Assembly (NCBI GenBank): GCA_964016885.1
Contig: OZ024750.1
Span: forward strand, 11,656,001 to 11,720,000
From: Eledone cirrhosa
Lineage: Eukaryota
Direction: 5' to 3'
Length of the DNA: 64,000 nt
How positions within the stretch are numbered: the first letter of the stretch is position 1; each line of letters starts with the position of its first letter. The notes beneath the pieces were generated by a model, which was not told where the DNA came from, did not search any database, and saw nothing but the letters and a program-made list of their open reading frames with translations. The translations under genes and the position numbers were made by a program. Positions 22,050 to 62,050 of the stretch are shown in pieces.

Positions 22050-22511
22050 GTAAACTAGTTTTCACCCTCATATATCATCATTTTACGTCCGCTTTTCCCT
22101 GTTTACAAGGGTGGGACAGGAACTGATTCTGGCTTGATTTCTACAGCTGGATGCCCTTCCTAACACCAACCTCATTTACAGTGAGTGCTGGGTGCTTTTT
22201 TGCCGTGGCACCTCCACGACCACTTTGCAGTGGAATGATAGGGACCCCAGTCCTATCATCTCATTTCTACAGCTGAGTAAACTGGAGCAATGTGAAATAA
22301 AGTGTCTTGCTCAAAGAAACAACACATCACCCGGTCTGAGAATTGAACTCACAACCTTTCGATTGCAAGGCCAATGCTCTAACCACTAAGCCATGTGCCT
22401 CCATTATATATGCTTATATATTTGTGTATATGTATGTGTATATTTATATACATATATATCTATTCCCGATGGGAGCTGTTTATTAATACATATATATGTA
22501 TATATATAGAG

Positions 22512-24684: not shown

Positions 24685-24869
24685 AAGATAACCCACGAGA
24701 AATTGATGTGAAAGCATTCTTAACGGAAGCTATTATAATGAAAGATTTTTACCATGAAAATATTTTATCATTGATTGGAATCTGTCTTGGTAAAGATCAA
24801 ATGCCACTTGTCGTACTTCCATACATGTTACATGGAGACTTACTTTCATATCTTCGAGATGTTAACAAT
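24685..24869 (+). CDS. MET/RON-like kinase exon (alphaC, hinge)
   Basis: [24 protein letters not shown]...[13 protein letters not shown]. Confidence 0.96.
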
Positions 24870-25347: not shown

Positions 25348-25441
25348 TATATATATATTAAAATACAAATATTAATAAAATAGATGTTCTTTTTATCAAT
25401 TACATTTTATTATACATATTTCGGATGTACAACAGTACATA

Positions 25442-25492
25442 TTTTGTCTGATGAGGATGTACTGTTGTACAACCGAAATATGTATGATAAAA
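25442..25492 (+). ncRNA. Hammerhead ribozyme-like motif in Penelope-end hairpin 25356-25542
   Basis: TTTTGT-CTGATGA-GGATGTAC tgtt GTACAACC-GAAA TATGTA TG-ATAAAA; the inverted arm keeps the AUA triplet. Confidence 0.7.
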
Positions 25493-25798
25493 TTTAATTG
25501 ATAAAAAGAACATCTATTTTATTAATATTTGTATTTTAATATTACTAACTCTCGAAAATTATTTTTCATAGAGTGCTTACAATCTACTGTAAAACACATT
25601 CTTTGATATACTCATTGAATATTGTTTAACTCTTTAATATAGATATATATATATATATATATATGTGTGAAAGTTCTATTTAAATTGTTGGGATACAACA
25701 AGCAAATATTTTTATAACTGATATAAAGCACTCAACAAATAATTAGAGTAAAAATACGATATTAACAAATGGAAACTATATTTATAAAACCATATTTA

Positions 25799-26326: not shown

Positions 26327-26436
26327 CAACCAACCATTAAAGATCTCATTGTCTTTGGCATCAGTATTGCATCAGGGATGGACTATTTATCTAAATTAAA
26401 GTTTGTCCACCGAGATTTGGCAGCAAGAAATTGTAT
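26327..26436 (+). CDS. MET/RON-like kinase exon (catalytic loop)
   Basis: [37 protein letters not shown]. Confidence 0.97.
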
Positions 26437-26786: not shown

Positions 26787-27979
26787 GTTTAAACAAACAA
26801 TTTCTGCTTACACTCTAAAGCTTAAACTTTTAATCTGTGCTAGTATATATATATATATATATCATCATCATCGTTTAACGTCCATCTTCCACGCTTGCAT
26901 TGGTTTGGACGGGAATTTTCCCACTTGAGGCAAGATTGGTTGTCTTGCTCGTATAGGACTGTCTGGCAGGTTTCTATGGCTGGATGCCCTTCCTAACACC
27001 AACCACGTTTACAGCATACCACACCCATATATATATATGGGTGTGTTATGCTTTGACCTTCACAAATAAACGGATATTTTCATCTTCTAATAGTTTTTAA
27101 TTTATATATATATATATATATACATTTTAATTTAATTTAACCTGAAACAATCCTTAAATTTTTGTTTCAGGAAAAAAGCTTATTTGATTTCTAATTTCAT
27201 ATAAATTAAATAAATTTACATAATCATACATTTCCATACAGTCTCAAATTCCAGTCTTTGGTTTAATTATTAATTACTGCTTTTCCCATTAATTAAACTA
27301 ACGCATGTTTTCTGAACAAGTTTTAACATATAGAACAATGCCCATTGCCTAATCTTTCACTCCCAACTATACGCCATGGATTCTGAGGAACCCTAAGACA
27401 CGTCATTTAATAAAATTAATGAAGATTTATTATGATTTCTTCATTTTACATTTGAATAAATTCTCTCTGAAATAATTTTTTTAATTGAACATCTTTTTAA
27501 AATTAGAGTGGTGTAGATCATCTGTAAATGTAGTTATGGTTTGCTAAGGTTTTGGAAAATCATGACAAAATAACATTGGGATCTACTGCTCTATATAGTT
27601 ACATGTCCTGCTAGAAATAGAAGCTAAATCTCCCTCAAATCATACTTTGTTAATCATCCTTATCATCATCACTGCTTTACATCCATTTTTCCATGCTAGC
27701 ATGGGTTAGACAAGTTGTCCTGTTGTGAGACAAGTCAGATCACCCCCACCCCCCACCCCCTGTAAATATTCTCCCCAGAAACAGTGGTGTTAAGCTGTTT
27801 GATCAGCTTGAGAAACTACATAATAGATGCTCCTTCATTGATTGTTTTTGCTTATACAGAACTCATTCTGGATTGGTTTCTACACCGGGATACCCTTCCT
27901 AAAAACAACCACATTTACAGTGTGGACTGGATGCTTTTTATCATGACACGTACATGACAACCTTACTGGGTGCTTTTTT

Positions 27980-28112
27980 CTAATTTAACTGACCACCAGT
28001 AAATTACTAATTCAACTGACCACCAGTAAATTTCTAATTTAACTGACCACCAGTAAATTACTAATTCAACTGACCACCAGTAAATTTCTAATTGAACTGA
28101 CCACCAGCAAAT
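27980..28112. repeat. 27-bp tandem repeat, 5 units
   Basis: CTAATT(T/C/G)AACTGACCACCAGTAAATT(A/T). Confidence 0.85.
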
Positions 28113-28334: not shown

Positions 28335-28497
28335 GCTTGATGAAAAACTTATAGTAAAAGTTGCAGATTTTGGTCTTTCTCGAGATATTTACGAACGAGA
28401 CTACTACAGCAGTGACAATAAGAAATCAAAGCTTCCTGTAAAATGGATGGCATTAGAAAGTTTGGAGACAGGAAACTATAACATCAAAACAGATGTG
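28335..28497 (+). CDS. MET/RON-like kinase exon (DFG, YY activation loop)
   Basis: [25 protein letters not shown]...[12 protein letters not shown]...KTDV. Confidence 0.97.
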
Positions 28498-29204
28498 GTG
28501 AGTTATTTTCTCTTTTACTTTTCAATTTACTGTTTATACTCGAATATAAGTTAATTCAAGAATAAGACCATTCCCTTTATTTTATGTCTGAGAAATAGGT
28601 GAAAATCCAAACCCTGTTTATAAACCAAGACAGCTAATTAGAACATTGTTTAGATGGCATATATAAGCCAATCTCCCATTTTACCATTGATTTTTTGGTG
28701 CTGATAGGGTTCTAATTACTAGTGACCTCGAATGGATGAAAGACAAAATTATATTACTGTAAATTTATATAGACGATTTTAATAATCCTAGTATATAACT
28801 GGTACTTATAATATTATGATGTGAAGCAAAAGTCGATCTTGGTAAGATTTGAACTTGGTACATGGAATAACAATACTGCAACGAATTTAATATGACTTTT
28901 GCACTAAGCAGTGCTGACTTGCCTTTTATTTTTTTGTGAAAAGCATTTAAAATTTTCCCACAGCATATGGAATAGTAAAGTAGGTCATGATCTGCTTTTA
29001 ACTGCACACTCTTTCATATATAGTAAATCTAGTGTGGATCTCTGATATCACAACTATATCCAGATAAATCTGTTGGCTTAGTATTATTGTTTTACCATTT
29101 CTACAGATGTCCTGATCTGTAAGGAGAGTAAGATCAATAAATATTGCATGGTATTGAGACTTAGTAAATCTAAATTGAGAATTGTATTATTGCTTTATGT
29201 TGCT

Positions 29205-29250
<46 letters not shown>

Positions 29251-29640
29251 TTGTTGTTGCTACTGTTGGTGTTGGTGATGATGATGATGATGATGATGAT
29301 GTTGTTGTTGCTACTGTTGGTGTTGGTGTTGGTGATGATGATGATGATGATGATGTGGTTGCTGTTATCGATGATGTTGCTGCTGCTGCTGTTTTTGTTG
29401 TTGTTCCTGTTGTTATTGTTGTTGTTGCTAGCAGTACTATCTTGGTCAATCAAAGAAAGTTATAGGTTTAAGTCAAAGCAGTTATAGCTCTGTGATGAAC
29501 ATATGCACTTTGCCACCAGGTGGCTCTCAGTTCAATCCCACTGTATGGTTACTTGAACAAGTATTTTCTGTTCTGGCCTTGGGTTGACTAATTTCCTTTA
29601 TGAGGAACATTTGGTTGACAGATATCAAGCAGAAGCCTGT

Positions 29641-29819
<179 letters not shown>

Positions 29820-30487
29820 GCACATGGCTTAGTGGTTAGAGCATTGGCCTTGCAATCGAAAGGTTGTGAGTTCAATTCTCAGACCGGGTGATGTGTTGTT
29901 TCCTTGAGCAAGACACTTTATTTCACATTGCTCCAGTTTACTCAGCTGTAGAAATGAGATGATAGGGACTGGGGTCCATATCATTCCACTGCAAAGTGGT
30001 CGTGGAGGTGCAAAAAAAAGTACCCAGCACTCACTGTAAATGAGGTTGGTGTTAGGAAGGGCATCCAGCTGTAGAAATCAAGCCAGAATCGGTTCCCGTC
30101 CCACCCTTGCAAGTAGGGAAAAGCGGACGTAAAATGAAATGATGATGATATATGTGTGTGTGTGTATATATATATATACATATACATACATACACACACA
30201 TATACACACACACACATATATATATATATATGGTTGGTATATTTGGTGTTAGTTAATCAACCAACACTACACAGGATATAACACTCAAAGTATATATGAA
30301 GGTCTGTATACTTGCTTCATGTTTATAGTGGCTTCCATTATGCTTGATGATGATGATAGTGGTGGTGGCGGCGGCAGTGGTGATTTCTCTTCCTTCATGT
30401 ATAAACATGTGGCTTCCATTATTCTTCCATTCTTACAAAATATGAGATTTAACAACTATATACACATAATTTCTCTCTGTTTTTCAG

Positions 30488-30624
30488 TGGTCATATGGTG
30501 TAGTGTTATGGGAATTATTCACCCGTGGAGTAAACCCTTATCCGACTGTTGACAATTGGGATATGCCCAAATTCTTAAAATCTGGCCGAAGAATGGACAA
30601 ACCAGACTATTGTCCAAGCAAAAC
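30488..30624 (+). CDS. MET/RON-like kinase exon
   Basis: WSYGVVLWELFTRGVNPYPTVDNWDMPKFLKSGRRMDKPDYCP. Confidence 0.97.
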
Positions 30625-31725
30625 GTAAGTATGGGTAAACTTCTGTATTGTATGTTCTTAATGTTTTCAGAAATATCTTCATTTTAAATCTGTTTACCAT
30701 ATTAGCATGGGTTGGACAGTTCTTTCCAGTCCAGGTAAGTTCTTATTCATAGTTACATATATATATCTATATATATATATGAAAAGATTCAGGACCCCGA
30801 CAGCTGAGCTGTTGTTTCAACAGCTAGATCTAGCTGTTGAAACAGCCAGAGCTCAGCTGTCGGGGTCCTGAATCTTTTCATATTACTCACTCTACTACCC
30901 CAAGTATCGAGTACTCTGGTGGGTTATGGTCCACCTGGTATCTTACCACACGCTCTCTGATATGTGTGTGTATATATATATATATGGAGGCACATGGCTT
31001 AGTGGTTAGAGCATTGGCCTTGCAATCGAAAGGTTGTGAGTTCAATTCTCAGACCAGGTGATGTGTTGTTTCCTTGAGCAAGACACTTTATTTCACATTG
31101 CTCCAGTTTACTCAGCTGTAGAAATGAGATGATAGGGACTGGGGTCCATATCATTCCACTGCAAAGTGGTCGTGGAGGCGCCACGGCAAAAAAGCACCCA
31201 GCACTCACTGTAAATGAGGTTGGTGTTAGGAAGGGCATCCAGCTGTAGAAATCAAGCCAGAATCAGTTCCCGTCCCACCCTTGCAAACAGGGAAAAGCGG
31301 ACGTAAAATGAAATGATGATGATGATGATGATGATATATATATAGGGTCGTCAAGTATGAAATGAAATTTGTAGAAATTTGTTTTTTTCTAGAAATTTCT
31401 AAAAATTTCATACTTGACGATCCAATATATATATAACACATACAGTTACTTGTAATACAAGTTTTGCCAAGTGGTTAGTACAGTCTGTAAAGTGTTAGTG
31501 TTGGTGCCATGATAAAATGCCATCCAGCCATAGATACCATGCCAGGCATAGAATGCACGGGCAAAATGAGGTCCCTTCCACTCATTTAGTCACTGACTAT
31601 GACAACCTATCCAACCCATGCTAATATGAAAGGGGGGATGTATAATGATAATGATGGTGATGATAATAATAATATTTGTGTATGTGAGTATATGTAAACA
31701 TTTGTTTTTTATTTTATTATCCCAG

Positions 31726-59668: not shown

Positions 59669-60499
59669 TGTAAATTGATAGATAGATAGAGAGAGAGATG
59701 TAAATTGATAGATAGAGAGAGATGTAAATTGATAGTTAGAGAGATAGTGTGTGTGTTTGTTGCATGTGAGAATGTATGTGTGAAAATGAGAGGGAGAGGG
59801 GGAAAGTGTGTGTCTGTGGGAGAGAGAGAGAGAGATGGGGAAGAGAGAGTGAGCGAGTGCATGTGTAGATATGAAAGTGTTTGTGTGTGTGAATAAGAAA
59901 TAGGGAGGTGTATGTATGTGTGTGGGGGGGAGAGAAAGAGGGGCAGATAGAGAAGAGGGAGAGAAAGAGAGTTAAGAGGAATGAGGGTTAATTAAGGAAC
60001 AGGAGATGACTGACTGTAAAGGGGGTGATGGGTGGAGGAGAGGAGAGGGAGAAAGGAGGGTGGGAGAGGGAGAGAGAGAGAAAGAAAGGAGGCAAGAGAG
60101 GGGAGGAGAGAGAGAGAGGAGGGGAGAAAGAGATAGAGAAGAGAGGGGGGTGAGAGAGAGCAGAAGAGAGAGAGAGAGTAGGGTTTAAAACAAGGAAATA
60201 TAACAAAGAAAAGAGAAAAGAAAAAATTGTACCAGGGTAATGACAGAATCGGCTTTGGGGTGGGGGCAGTAATGGTTGGGGGGGGGGGGGGGTTATAGAT
60301 TGGGGTGGGGACCATAATGGCTACTGAGGGAAGGGGTGCCTTGTGGAGGTTACAGATTGGGGTGGGCGGGGACCGTAATGATTGCTGTGGGGTGGGGCTT
60401 TGTTGAGGTTATAGATTGAAGAAGAAAGGTTTGTGCTGGAGAAGAAACAAAAAGTTAATTTAAAACCTTCCAACCCTCCCCTGGAAAGTTGGTGGCAGG

Positions 60500-62050
60500 G
60501 TGAGGTGGATTAAGGAGGCTGGTGGTGATGGTGGCAGTGATTGTGGTTTCGGTGGTGGTGATGGTGGTGGCAGTGATGGTGGTGGCAGTGATGGTAGTGG
60601 TTGTGGTGGTGGTGATGGTGGTGGCAGTGATGGTAGTGGTTGTGGTTGTGGTGATGGTGGTGGTTGTGGTGGTGGTGATGGTGGTGGTGGTGATGGTGGT
60701 GGTGGTGGTGATGGTGGTGATGGTGGTGGTTGTGGTGGTGGTGATGGTGGTGGCAGTGATGTAGTGGCTGTGGTGGTGGTGATGGTGGTGGCAGTGATGG
60801 TAGTGGTTGTGGTGGTGGTGGTGGTGGTGGCAGTGATGGTAGTGGTTGTGGTGATGGTGGTGGCAGTGATGGTAGTGGCTGTGGTGGTGGTGGCAGTGAT
60901 GGTAGTGGTTGTGGTAGTGGTTGTGGTGATGGTGGTGGCAGTGATGGTAGTGGCTGTGGTGGTGGTGGTGGCAGTGATGGTAGTGGTTGTGGTGGTGGTG
61001 GTGGTGGTGGTGGTGGCAGTGATGGTAGTGGTTGTGGTGATGGTGGTGGTGGTGGCAGTGATGGTAGTGGTTGTGTTGGTGGTGGTGGTGGTGGTGGCAG
61101 TGATGGTAGTGTTTGTGGTGGTGGTGATGGTGGTGGCAGTGATGGTAGTGGTTGTGGTGGTGGTGGTGGCAGTGATGGTAGTGGTTGTGGTGGTGGTGGT
61201 GGTGGCAGTGATGGTAGTGATGGTGGTTGGTTGTGGTGGTGGTGATGTGGGCTGGTAGTGGTGGTGGTGGGGGTGGTATCAGGTGAGACACTAGCTACAA
61301 TTAAAGTAGTTAATTGGAACAGAAGGGTGAACTGTGTGGTGGTGGTGATGGTAGTGGTGTTGGTGATGGTAGTGGTGCTGTGGTTAATAGAGTTGGTGGT
61401 GTGGGTGGTGGTGGTAGTGATGGTAGTGGTGTTGGTGATGGTAGTGGTGCTGTGGTTAGTAGAGTTGGTGGTGTGGGTGGTGGTGGTAGTGATGGTAGTG
61501 GTGTTGTGGTTAGTAGAGTTGGTGGTGTTGTTGTGGTTAGTGGTGTGGGTGGTGGTGGTGTTGTGGTTAGTAGAGTTGGTGTTGGTGGTGTTGTTGTTAG
61601 TGGTATTGGTGGTGGTGGTGTTGTTGGTAATGTTGTGGTTAGTAGTGTTGGTTTTGTTGTGGTTGGTGATAGTGGTGTTGGTAGTGTTGGTAGTGGTGGT
61701 GGTGGTGGTGTTGCTAGTGTTGGTGGTGGTGGTGTTGGTAGTGGTGGTGATGGTGGTGGTGATGTTGTTGTTGTTGGTGTTGTTGGTAGTGATTGTTTTG
61801 GTTACTAGTGTTGGTGTGGGTGGTAGTGTTGTGGTTGTTGTTGCTGGTGGTGGTGTTGTTGGAGATGGTGGTTTTGTTGTGGCATTGTTGTTGGTGGTGA
61901 AGTTTACAGTGATGATATGATGATGTTTGTTGTAGTCATGGTGATGCAGATGATGATAATGATAATGATGGTGGTGGTGGTGATGGTGATCAGAGGGGGG
62001 GGGGTGTAGTAGTGATAGGGATAACAATGATGATGATGATAATGATGATG
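60500..62050. repeat. GGT/GAT/GTT trinucleotide-type low-complexity tract
   Basis: Direct reading; source of spurious poly-His/Thr/Val ORFs. Confidence 0.9.

What the first reader, a model, noticed from the sequence alone, without database searches (positions are those of the whole stretch)
28978..29146. Antisense block pairing with both catalytic-loop and DFG exons; predicts K>R and I>V recoding in the kinase
rc(29095-29146) CAATATTTATTGATCTTACTCTCCTTACAGATCAGGACATCTGTAGAAATGG resembles 26331-26381. rc(29038-29069) ATTTATCTGGATATAGTTGT..GAGAT resembles ATTTATCTAAATTAAAGTTTGT..GAGAT. rc(28978-29017) ATGAAAGAGTGTGCAGTTAAAAGCAGATCATGACCTACTT resembles ATGAAAAACTTATAGTAAAAGTTGCAGATTTTGGTCTTTCT (28340-28380). 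The order is nested and spliced, and most mismatches in the last stem are wobble or A-C. Predicted sites: A26393/26394 (Lys codon), A28346 (K>R), A28351 (I>V).
Basis: partly seen in the sequence, partly recalled or inferred. Interest (0 to 1): 0.75.

Follow-up and report, generated by a model that had tools for sequence, protein, structure and literature searches.

The report
Likely chance exon–intron pairing, octopod MET
A 169-base stretch of intron in an octopus-type MET receptor kinase gene is loosely complementary to two upstream exons, but the match is likely chance and the RNA is not predicted to fold that way, so the proposed RNA-editing sites remain untested guesses, with one unexplained hint in their favour.

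Summary
The three patches exist (60-67% identity with gaps, nested) in the intron after the DFG exon of an octopod MET-like kinase gene. As the genome reads, the match is near chance. Alignment scores are ordinary, and 40 of 1458 background windows pair as well. Three of 35 MET loci of other animals give an equally extreme best partner. In folding, the stems have about zero probability and the block is not the best partner of any predicted site.

The only two residues of these exons that differ from Octopus (K vs G, I vs V) would be reverted by A>G at three of the four predicted sites, each opposite a C. With those Gs the duplex becomes an outlier (1 of 140 triples; 1 of 1458 windows) and two stems partly form, but only after splicing.

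Editing could not be tested: only contigs were available, and the positive control was blank. Verdict: probably chance (0.7). The scan noted similar intronic antisense exon patches in other genomes.

The parts
26327..26436 (+). Exon A of a MET/HGF-receptor-like tyrosine kinase gene (region before and including the HRD catalytic loop)
   Evidence: Pfam PK_Tyr_Ser-Thr; 36 of 37 residues identical to the Octopus vulgaris HGF receptor; boundaries from the spliced contig of X4
28335..28497 (+). Exon B (DFG motif and activation loop)
   Evidence: Best PDB match human MET, E 4.7e-17; 98% identical to the O. vulgaris protein; boundaries; single best locus in G000, next paralog 57%
28978..29146 (+). 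The proposed antisense block, in the intron after exon B; one match in the genome search
   Evidence: no Rfam match over it
29095..29146 (+). Patch 1, loosely complementary to 26331-26381; predicted to fold with its own neighbourhood (7-bp stem 29102-29108/29115-29121) and not with the exon, even in the ortholog-like version
   Evidence: 33 of 55 columns; duplex -29.4, reached by 1.3% of 2158 windows; pair probability at most 0.01; local fold, z -0.69
29038..29069 (+). Patch 2, complementary to 26385-26416; C29061 and C29060 face A26393 and A26394
   Evidence: 22 of 33 columns; duplex -10.4, reached by 11% of 2269 windows; 8-bp helix becomes 12 bp with ortholog-like Gs
28978..29017 (+). Patch 3, complementary to 28340-28380; C29011 and C29005 face A28346 and A28351
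   Evidence: 26 of 42 columns; duplex -17.2, reached by 3.6% of 2222 windows
26393..26395 (+). Lys codon at HRD-5; Gly in three Octopus species and Argonauta, Ser in the decapodiform proteins; editing both As would give Gly, one alone Glu or Arg
28345..28347 (+). Lys codon at DFG-7; Lys in Octopus, decapodiforms and human MET, Asn in Argonauta; Arg in 1 of 109 relatives
28351..28353 (+). Ile codon at DFG-5; Val in Octopus, Argonauta and two decapodiform groups, Ile in a third group
28876..28914 (+). A rival complement of the exon A/B junction and start of exon B; scores better than the block for A28346 and A28351 and pairs both with U
   Evidence: (A28351 with 28893, p 0.90 in one of six folds)

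Best explanation
The block is most likely ordinary AT-rich intron sequence whose loose complementarity to two exons is the best chance match in this gene, and it is not predicted to form an ADAR substrate. Shown: the gene, the exon junction, the three gapped patches and their chance-level scores. Predicted: each patch folds with its own neighbourhood, and the exon adenosines stay unpaired or pair elsewhere. Inferred: the K/G and I/V differences from Octopus are ordinary substitutions at tolerant kinase positions, and their lying opposite Cs of the block is a coincidence.
For: Local alignment scores are reached by 5-71% of 514 control windows and by 460 of 1894 with composition-aware scoring. 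No hit by nhmmer --max at E 50 and none better than E 1.5 by tblastn (output partly cut). The duplex energy of -64.1 is reached by 40 of 1458 background windows and 3 of 492 GC-matched ones, with several hundred junction-window pairs available in the gene. Three of 35 MET loci of other animals give an equally extreme best partner. Stem probabilities are at most 0.02 expected pairs in all six folds of the genomic sequence, forcing the duplex costs 24 kcal/mol at 37 C, and the stems are absent from the unspliced minimum-energy fold with or without the Gs. In my approximation of a published ECS screen, 131 of 150 control exonic As have a qualifying partner (mean best score 82), while the block scores 61-71 and is not the best partner of any of the four sites. 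The three positions are variable: 12, 10 and 12 different residues among 109 relatives. The I/V split among decapodiform proteins follows sequence groups 3.5% or more apart, and all 8 proteins of the Ile group that cover the site read Ile and Lys.
Against: The genomic duplex is still the top of 17 junctions, and only 2 of 60 shuffled targets reach it in a best-of-scan test over low-GC windows. The only two amino-acid differences from Octopus in exons A and B are A>G-revertible, whereas only 2 of the other 16 differences in the kinase-side exons are. They fall on three of the four A-C mismatches. That triple gives the largest energy gain of 140 comparable triples, and 0 of 1458 windows gain as much. 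The ortholog-like duplex (-78.4, z -5.40) is beyond 57 of 57 best-of-scan shuffles, beyond all but 1 of 1458 windows and beyond all 51 other junction scans (most extreme -4.63). In the spliced context stem 2 then forms with probability up to 0.84 and stem 3 up to 0.40. Chance does not explain this comfortably.
Confidence: 0.7

Rival explanations
1. A weak editing-complementary sequence with restorative editing. An ancestral duplex had G-C pairs at 26393, 26394 and 28351; G>A substitutions in this lineage turned them into A-C mismatches, which ADAR would edit back to give Gly and Val. The duplex would form on a partly spliced RNA (intron A-B removed, next intron still present) and run across the exon junction.
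For: (see the Against line above). The tree groups the window with Argonauta (88/87, not starred) inside an octopod clade whose other four members have Gly and Val, so A is probably derived. Precedent: human SEMA5B, where an exonic G>A change made an edited A-C mismatch in an older duplex (PMC8897444, passages). Restorative editing is enriched in coleoids (PMC6881472, section 7), and edited As are more often G in sister species (PMC7703385, passages).
Against: The substrate ADAR would meet is the unedited RNA, and there the stems are not predicted. Patch 1 never forms. The ortholog codons are assumed from amino acids; no ortholog DNA was available. Gly needs two edits in one codon. The positions tolerate many residues, so there is little to restore. 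Robust recoding outside neural tissue is rare in squid, and 54% of neural recoding sites are edited below 1% (PMC9068888, passages). Even the ortholog-like alignment is matched by 28 of 1894 windows. I noticed the coincidence after looking, so 1 in 140 overstates it.
Confidence: 0.15
2. A functionless scar: an old inverted copy of the two exon ends (template switch or cDNA-mediated repair), made before the G>A substitutions and now decayed. It would keep the ancestral Gs without any editing.
For: Nested, roughly collinear order; patch 2 is in register without gaps over 32 nt and has a 12-bp exact core against the ortholog-like exon; one match in the genome search.
Against: No detectable homology by nhmmer, tblastn or log-odds alignment. 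Extending to the whole of both exons does not raise significance (59 of 852). Spacing between patches differs from the spliced exons. A spliced order needs an RNA intermediate landing within 0.5 kb of its own exon.
Confidence: 0.12
3. The reader's version without the restorative twist, or a splicing-control duplex: an active stem in the present transcript that drives K>R at 28346 and other diversifying edits.
For: A28346 also faces a C; with all four Gs stems 2 and 3 reach probability 1.0, so editing would reinforce itself.
Against: Arg occurs at DFG-7 in 1 of 109 relatives; the unedited RNA does not form the stems; the four-G version is circular, since those sites were chosen for facing C.
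Confidence: 0.03

Closest known systems
Intronic editing-complementary sequences (ECS) of ADAR recoding sites (PMC8897444, passages; GluA2 Q/R and R/G recalled, not from a call)
   Same: An intronic stretch downstream of a coding exon, antisense to it, with A-C mismatches at candidate sites.
   Different: No editing shown; helices of at most 8 bp, not predicted to form; the block would have to pair with two exons across a splice junction; conservation untested.
SEMA5B human-specific site: exonic G>A inside an older duplex gives an edited A-C mismatch (PMC8897444, passages)
   Same: Same logic as the restorative rival: derived A opposite C where relatives have G.
   Different: There the duplex and the editing are observed across species; here three such sites are only inferred from amino acids, and the duplex is weak.
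Restorative (harm-permitting) editing in coleoids (PMC6881472, passages and section 7; PMC7703385, passages)
   Same: K>G and I>V would be restorative by that paper's amino-acid definition.
   Different: That is a statistical class with median levels under 2.5%; being a potential restorative site is not evidence of editing.
MET / HGF receptor tyrosine kinases (PF07714 kinase; relatives carry Sema, PSI and IPT domains)
   Same: The host gene is the octopod MET ortholog by sequence and tree.
   Different: Nothing unusual in the kinase; Lys at HRD-5 is uncommon (2 of 109).

Membership tests
ADAR editing-complementary sequence | Lies in the same transcript, antisense to the exon | tested here: met
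   Block is in the intron 28498-30488 on the gene's strand; patches are reverse complements
ADAR editing-complementary sequence | Complementarity beyond chance | tested here: inconclusive
   Genomic sequence near chance; ortholog-like sequence an energy outlier but not an alignment outlier
ADAR editing-complementary sequence | Exon-intron duplex predicted in the unedited pre-mRNA | tested here: not met
   At most 0.02 expected pairs in six folds; absent from the unspliced fold; 24 kcal/mol penalty. Long-range folding predictions are imperfect.
ADAR editing-complementary sequence | A>G differences between RNA and DNA at the paired adenosines | tested here: inconclusive
   One spliced contig carries genomic A at all four sites, but the same run shows no difference on a Kv1-type control gene either; contigs drop minority variants
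ADAR editing-complementary sequence | Conservation and compensatory change across species | not testable with these tools
   No cephalopod intron DNA was found; the best metagenome loci are at most 87% identical in protein; G000 has no relatives held
ADAR editing-complementary sequence | Editing depends on the element | not testable with these tools
   Needs a minigene experiment
Inverted exon copy / retrocopy fragment | Detectable homology to the source exons | tested here: not met
Inverted exon copy / retrocopy fragment | Collinear, spliced order | tested here: inconclusive
   Order is nested, but the spacers differ (about 25 vs 3-4 nt and 20 vs 25 nt) and the match does not extend
MET/HGF receptor kinase (host gene) | Kinase closest to MET; ectodomain exons matching MET relatives | tested here: met

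The most novel reading that the evidence does not exclude
One intronic element pairs with a spliced exon-exon junction of octopod MET and lets ADAR restore two ancestral residues (Lys>Gly by a double edit, Ile>Val) lost by three G>A substitutions, each opposite a C. That would be a site-resolved case of harm-permitting editing, with a duplex that exists only between two splicing steps.
Probability: 0.12. Interest if true: 0.65.

Novelty: not a real feature. Interest (0 to 1): 0.24.

Why it matters
If the best explanation holds, it does not matter, except as a caution: in AT-rich cephalopod introns most exonic adenosines have a passable complementary stretch nearby (131 of 150). If the restorative reading holds, it would give a single locus in which the harm-permitting model of coleoid editing could be tested base by base, and a duplex tied to the order of splicing. 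The test is cheap: four positions in neural RNA reads and one orthologous intron.

Tried and rejected
Sequencing runs: 4 holders, 1 study, none on record as RNA: 'no RNA holder listed'. X4 behaves as RNA because one contig joins the exons; it has no other letters over exons A and B and no cover over most of the block. The control, a Kv1-type gene (L009; that such genes are edited in coleoids is recalled), also showed no difference in X4, so these blanks are not used as evidence. X1-X3 may be the source of the assembly.

The I/V split among decapodiform proteins looked like editing; rejected because it follows sequence groups.

Block as a repeat or structured RNA: one match in G000 (that search skips common words), no Rfam match over it, own fold unremarkable.

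A second protein search for more octopod orthologs gave none. The metagenome scan gave no locus close enough to compare introns; 35 of its 80 loci had both exons, canonical splice sites, a distinct target and enough intron, and served as a null.

One search's null maximum of 68 probably comes from a window overlapping exon A itself (not checked). Scripts used exon ends 26329 and 28498, 1-2 bases off the true 26327 and 28497. Upstream exon ends are approximate. Low-complexity windows were dropped from all window nulls. The tree used 13 proteins chosen by me; its window row was assembled from tblastn pieces.

Literature: no held paper has 'octopus', 'RNA editing' and 'hepatocyte growth factor receptor' together. 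The supplements held for PMC9068888 (1 file, 3,805 characters) and PMC8382921 (1 file) do not name MET; editing-site tables that I could not see may list it. A recalled id for a 2017 cephalopod recoding paper was not held, so nothing rests on it. Searches were seen as listings only.

Full report
Setting. The window holds a MET/HGF-receptor-like gene on the + strand, with 18 exon matches to the Octopus vulgaris protein between 569 and 31909. Exon B is closest to human MET among solved structures and 98% identical to the O. vulgaris protein. It has one clear locus in the genome. A tree of 13 proteins puts the gene among octopods, next to Argonauta at 88/87 support. One contig of run X4 covers 26327-26436 and 28335-28497 back to back, which fixes the junction. 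The block lies 480-650 bases into the next intron.

The observation. The patches are there: 33 of 55, 22 of 33 and 26 of 42 columns, nested. The four named As each face a C. They lie at HRD-5, DFG-7 and DFG-5, positions with 12, 10 and 12 different residues among the 109 of 144 fetched proteins that had both motifs.

Chance, genomic sequence. By alignment the block is ordinary: 5-71% of 514 windows reach its scores, and 460 or 558 of 1894 with log-odds scoring at two divergence settings. nhmmer and tblastn see nothing. By duplex energy it is better than average. Single stems are reached by 1.3%, 11% and 3.6% of windows. The joint duplex of -64.1 kcal/mol is reached by 10 of 679 windows in the window itself, 40 of 1458 in 200 kb of neighbouring DNA, and 3 of 492 GC-matched ones. 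Two of 60 shuffled targets reach it when allowed the best of 42 low-GC windows. The same best-partner search over all 17 junctions ranks this one first (z -3.09), with five others at -2.4 to -2.8, and 3 of 35 MET loci of other animals reach it. This is what the best pick of a gene looks like. In an approximation of a published ECS screen (my own scoring matrix), 131 of 150 control As have a partner of at least 30 columns and 70% pairing, and the block is not the best partner of any predicted site.

Folding. In six ensemble folds of the genomic sequence (three contexts, 37 and 15 C) the stems hold at most 0.02 expected pairs, and the patches fold locally. Forcing the duplex costs 24 kcal/mol at 37 C. 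The unspliced 2.9-kb fold lacks the stems. A different stretch, 28876-28914, pairs the start of exon B better and puts both As opposite U.

The result against my reading. Exons A and B differ from Octopus at two residues only: Lys for Gly and Ile for Val. Argonauta also has Gly and Val. A>G at 26393, 26394 and 28351 would give exactly those residues, and these are three of the four predicted sites. Only 2 of the 16 other differences in the kinase-side exons are A>G-revertible. With these three Gs the duplex drops to -78.4. This is the largest gain among 140 comparable triples, no background window gains as much, and 1 of 1458 reaches the energy. None of 57 best-of-scan shuffles reaches it, and z is -5.40 against -4.63 for the most extreme of 51 other scans. 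In the spliced context stem 2 then forms (0.84) and stem 3 partly (0.40), while stem 1 does not.

RNA evidence. Only contigs were available. The spliced X4 contig reads genomic A at all four sites, but it also shows no difference on a Kv1-type control, so the test had no demonstrated power. Among decapodiform proteins, Ile and Val sort by sequence group, and the 8 proteins of the Ile group that cover the site all read Ile and Lys.

Mechanism and verdict. Most likely the block is neutral intron and the two substitutions are tolerated changes (0.70). Second, a SEMA5B-like case (PMC8897444, passages): derived As opposite C in an older duplex, edited back on a partly spliced RNA, which would be restorative editing in the sense of PMC6881472 (passages and section 7) (0.15). 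Third, a decayed inverted copy that keeps ancestral Gs without function (0.12). Background rates argue for caution: in squid 54% of neural and 94% of non-neural recoding sites are edited below 1% (PMC9068888, passages). It is not filed as an ECS, because the predicted-duplex feature was tested and not met. I found no held paper on MET editing in octopus (supplements). Earlier notes of this scan describe clearer antisense exon copies in other genomes, mostly read as copying scars (unchecked); none lies near this window.

Noticed in passing
window 25355-25542: Near-perfect 86-bp inverted repeat (-108 kcal/mol, z -21.9) in the intron before exon A, a member of a family with many copies (107 matches from 40 of 917 candidates scored). 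It looks like a MITE-type element and would be a far stronger ADAR substrate than the block, 0.8 kb from exon A.
   Followed up: partly
window about 22060-22400 (-), 29790-30149 (+), 30960-31323 (+): Copies of one SINE-like repeat with a tRNA-like head (tRNA 28.1 bits at 29825-29882, below the cut-off of 29). The two + copies are 97% alike; the - copy, read by eye, could pair with them across four exons.
   Followed up: no
window 28876-28914: A second complement of the exon A/B junction and start of exon B, better than the reported block for the genomic sequence; probably also chance (24 of 852 windows).
   Followed up: partly
window 24750-24752: Tyr where all six cephalopod proteins compared have Asp, in the first half of the kinase domain.
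   Followed up: no
window 27977-28111: Tandem array of a 27-base unit, about five copies, in the intron between exons A and B.
   Followed up: no
L033 (about 730 bases after exon B) and L022 (about 250 bases after exon B): The two most extreme best partners among 35 MET loci of other animals (z -4.63 and -3.76); not inspected, may be low-complexity or real.
   Followed up: no
window 60001-62000: Strong compositional skew (GC 0.52, GC skew 0.85), probably a simple repeat; it supplies the strongest spurious duplexes.
   Followed up: no
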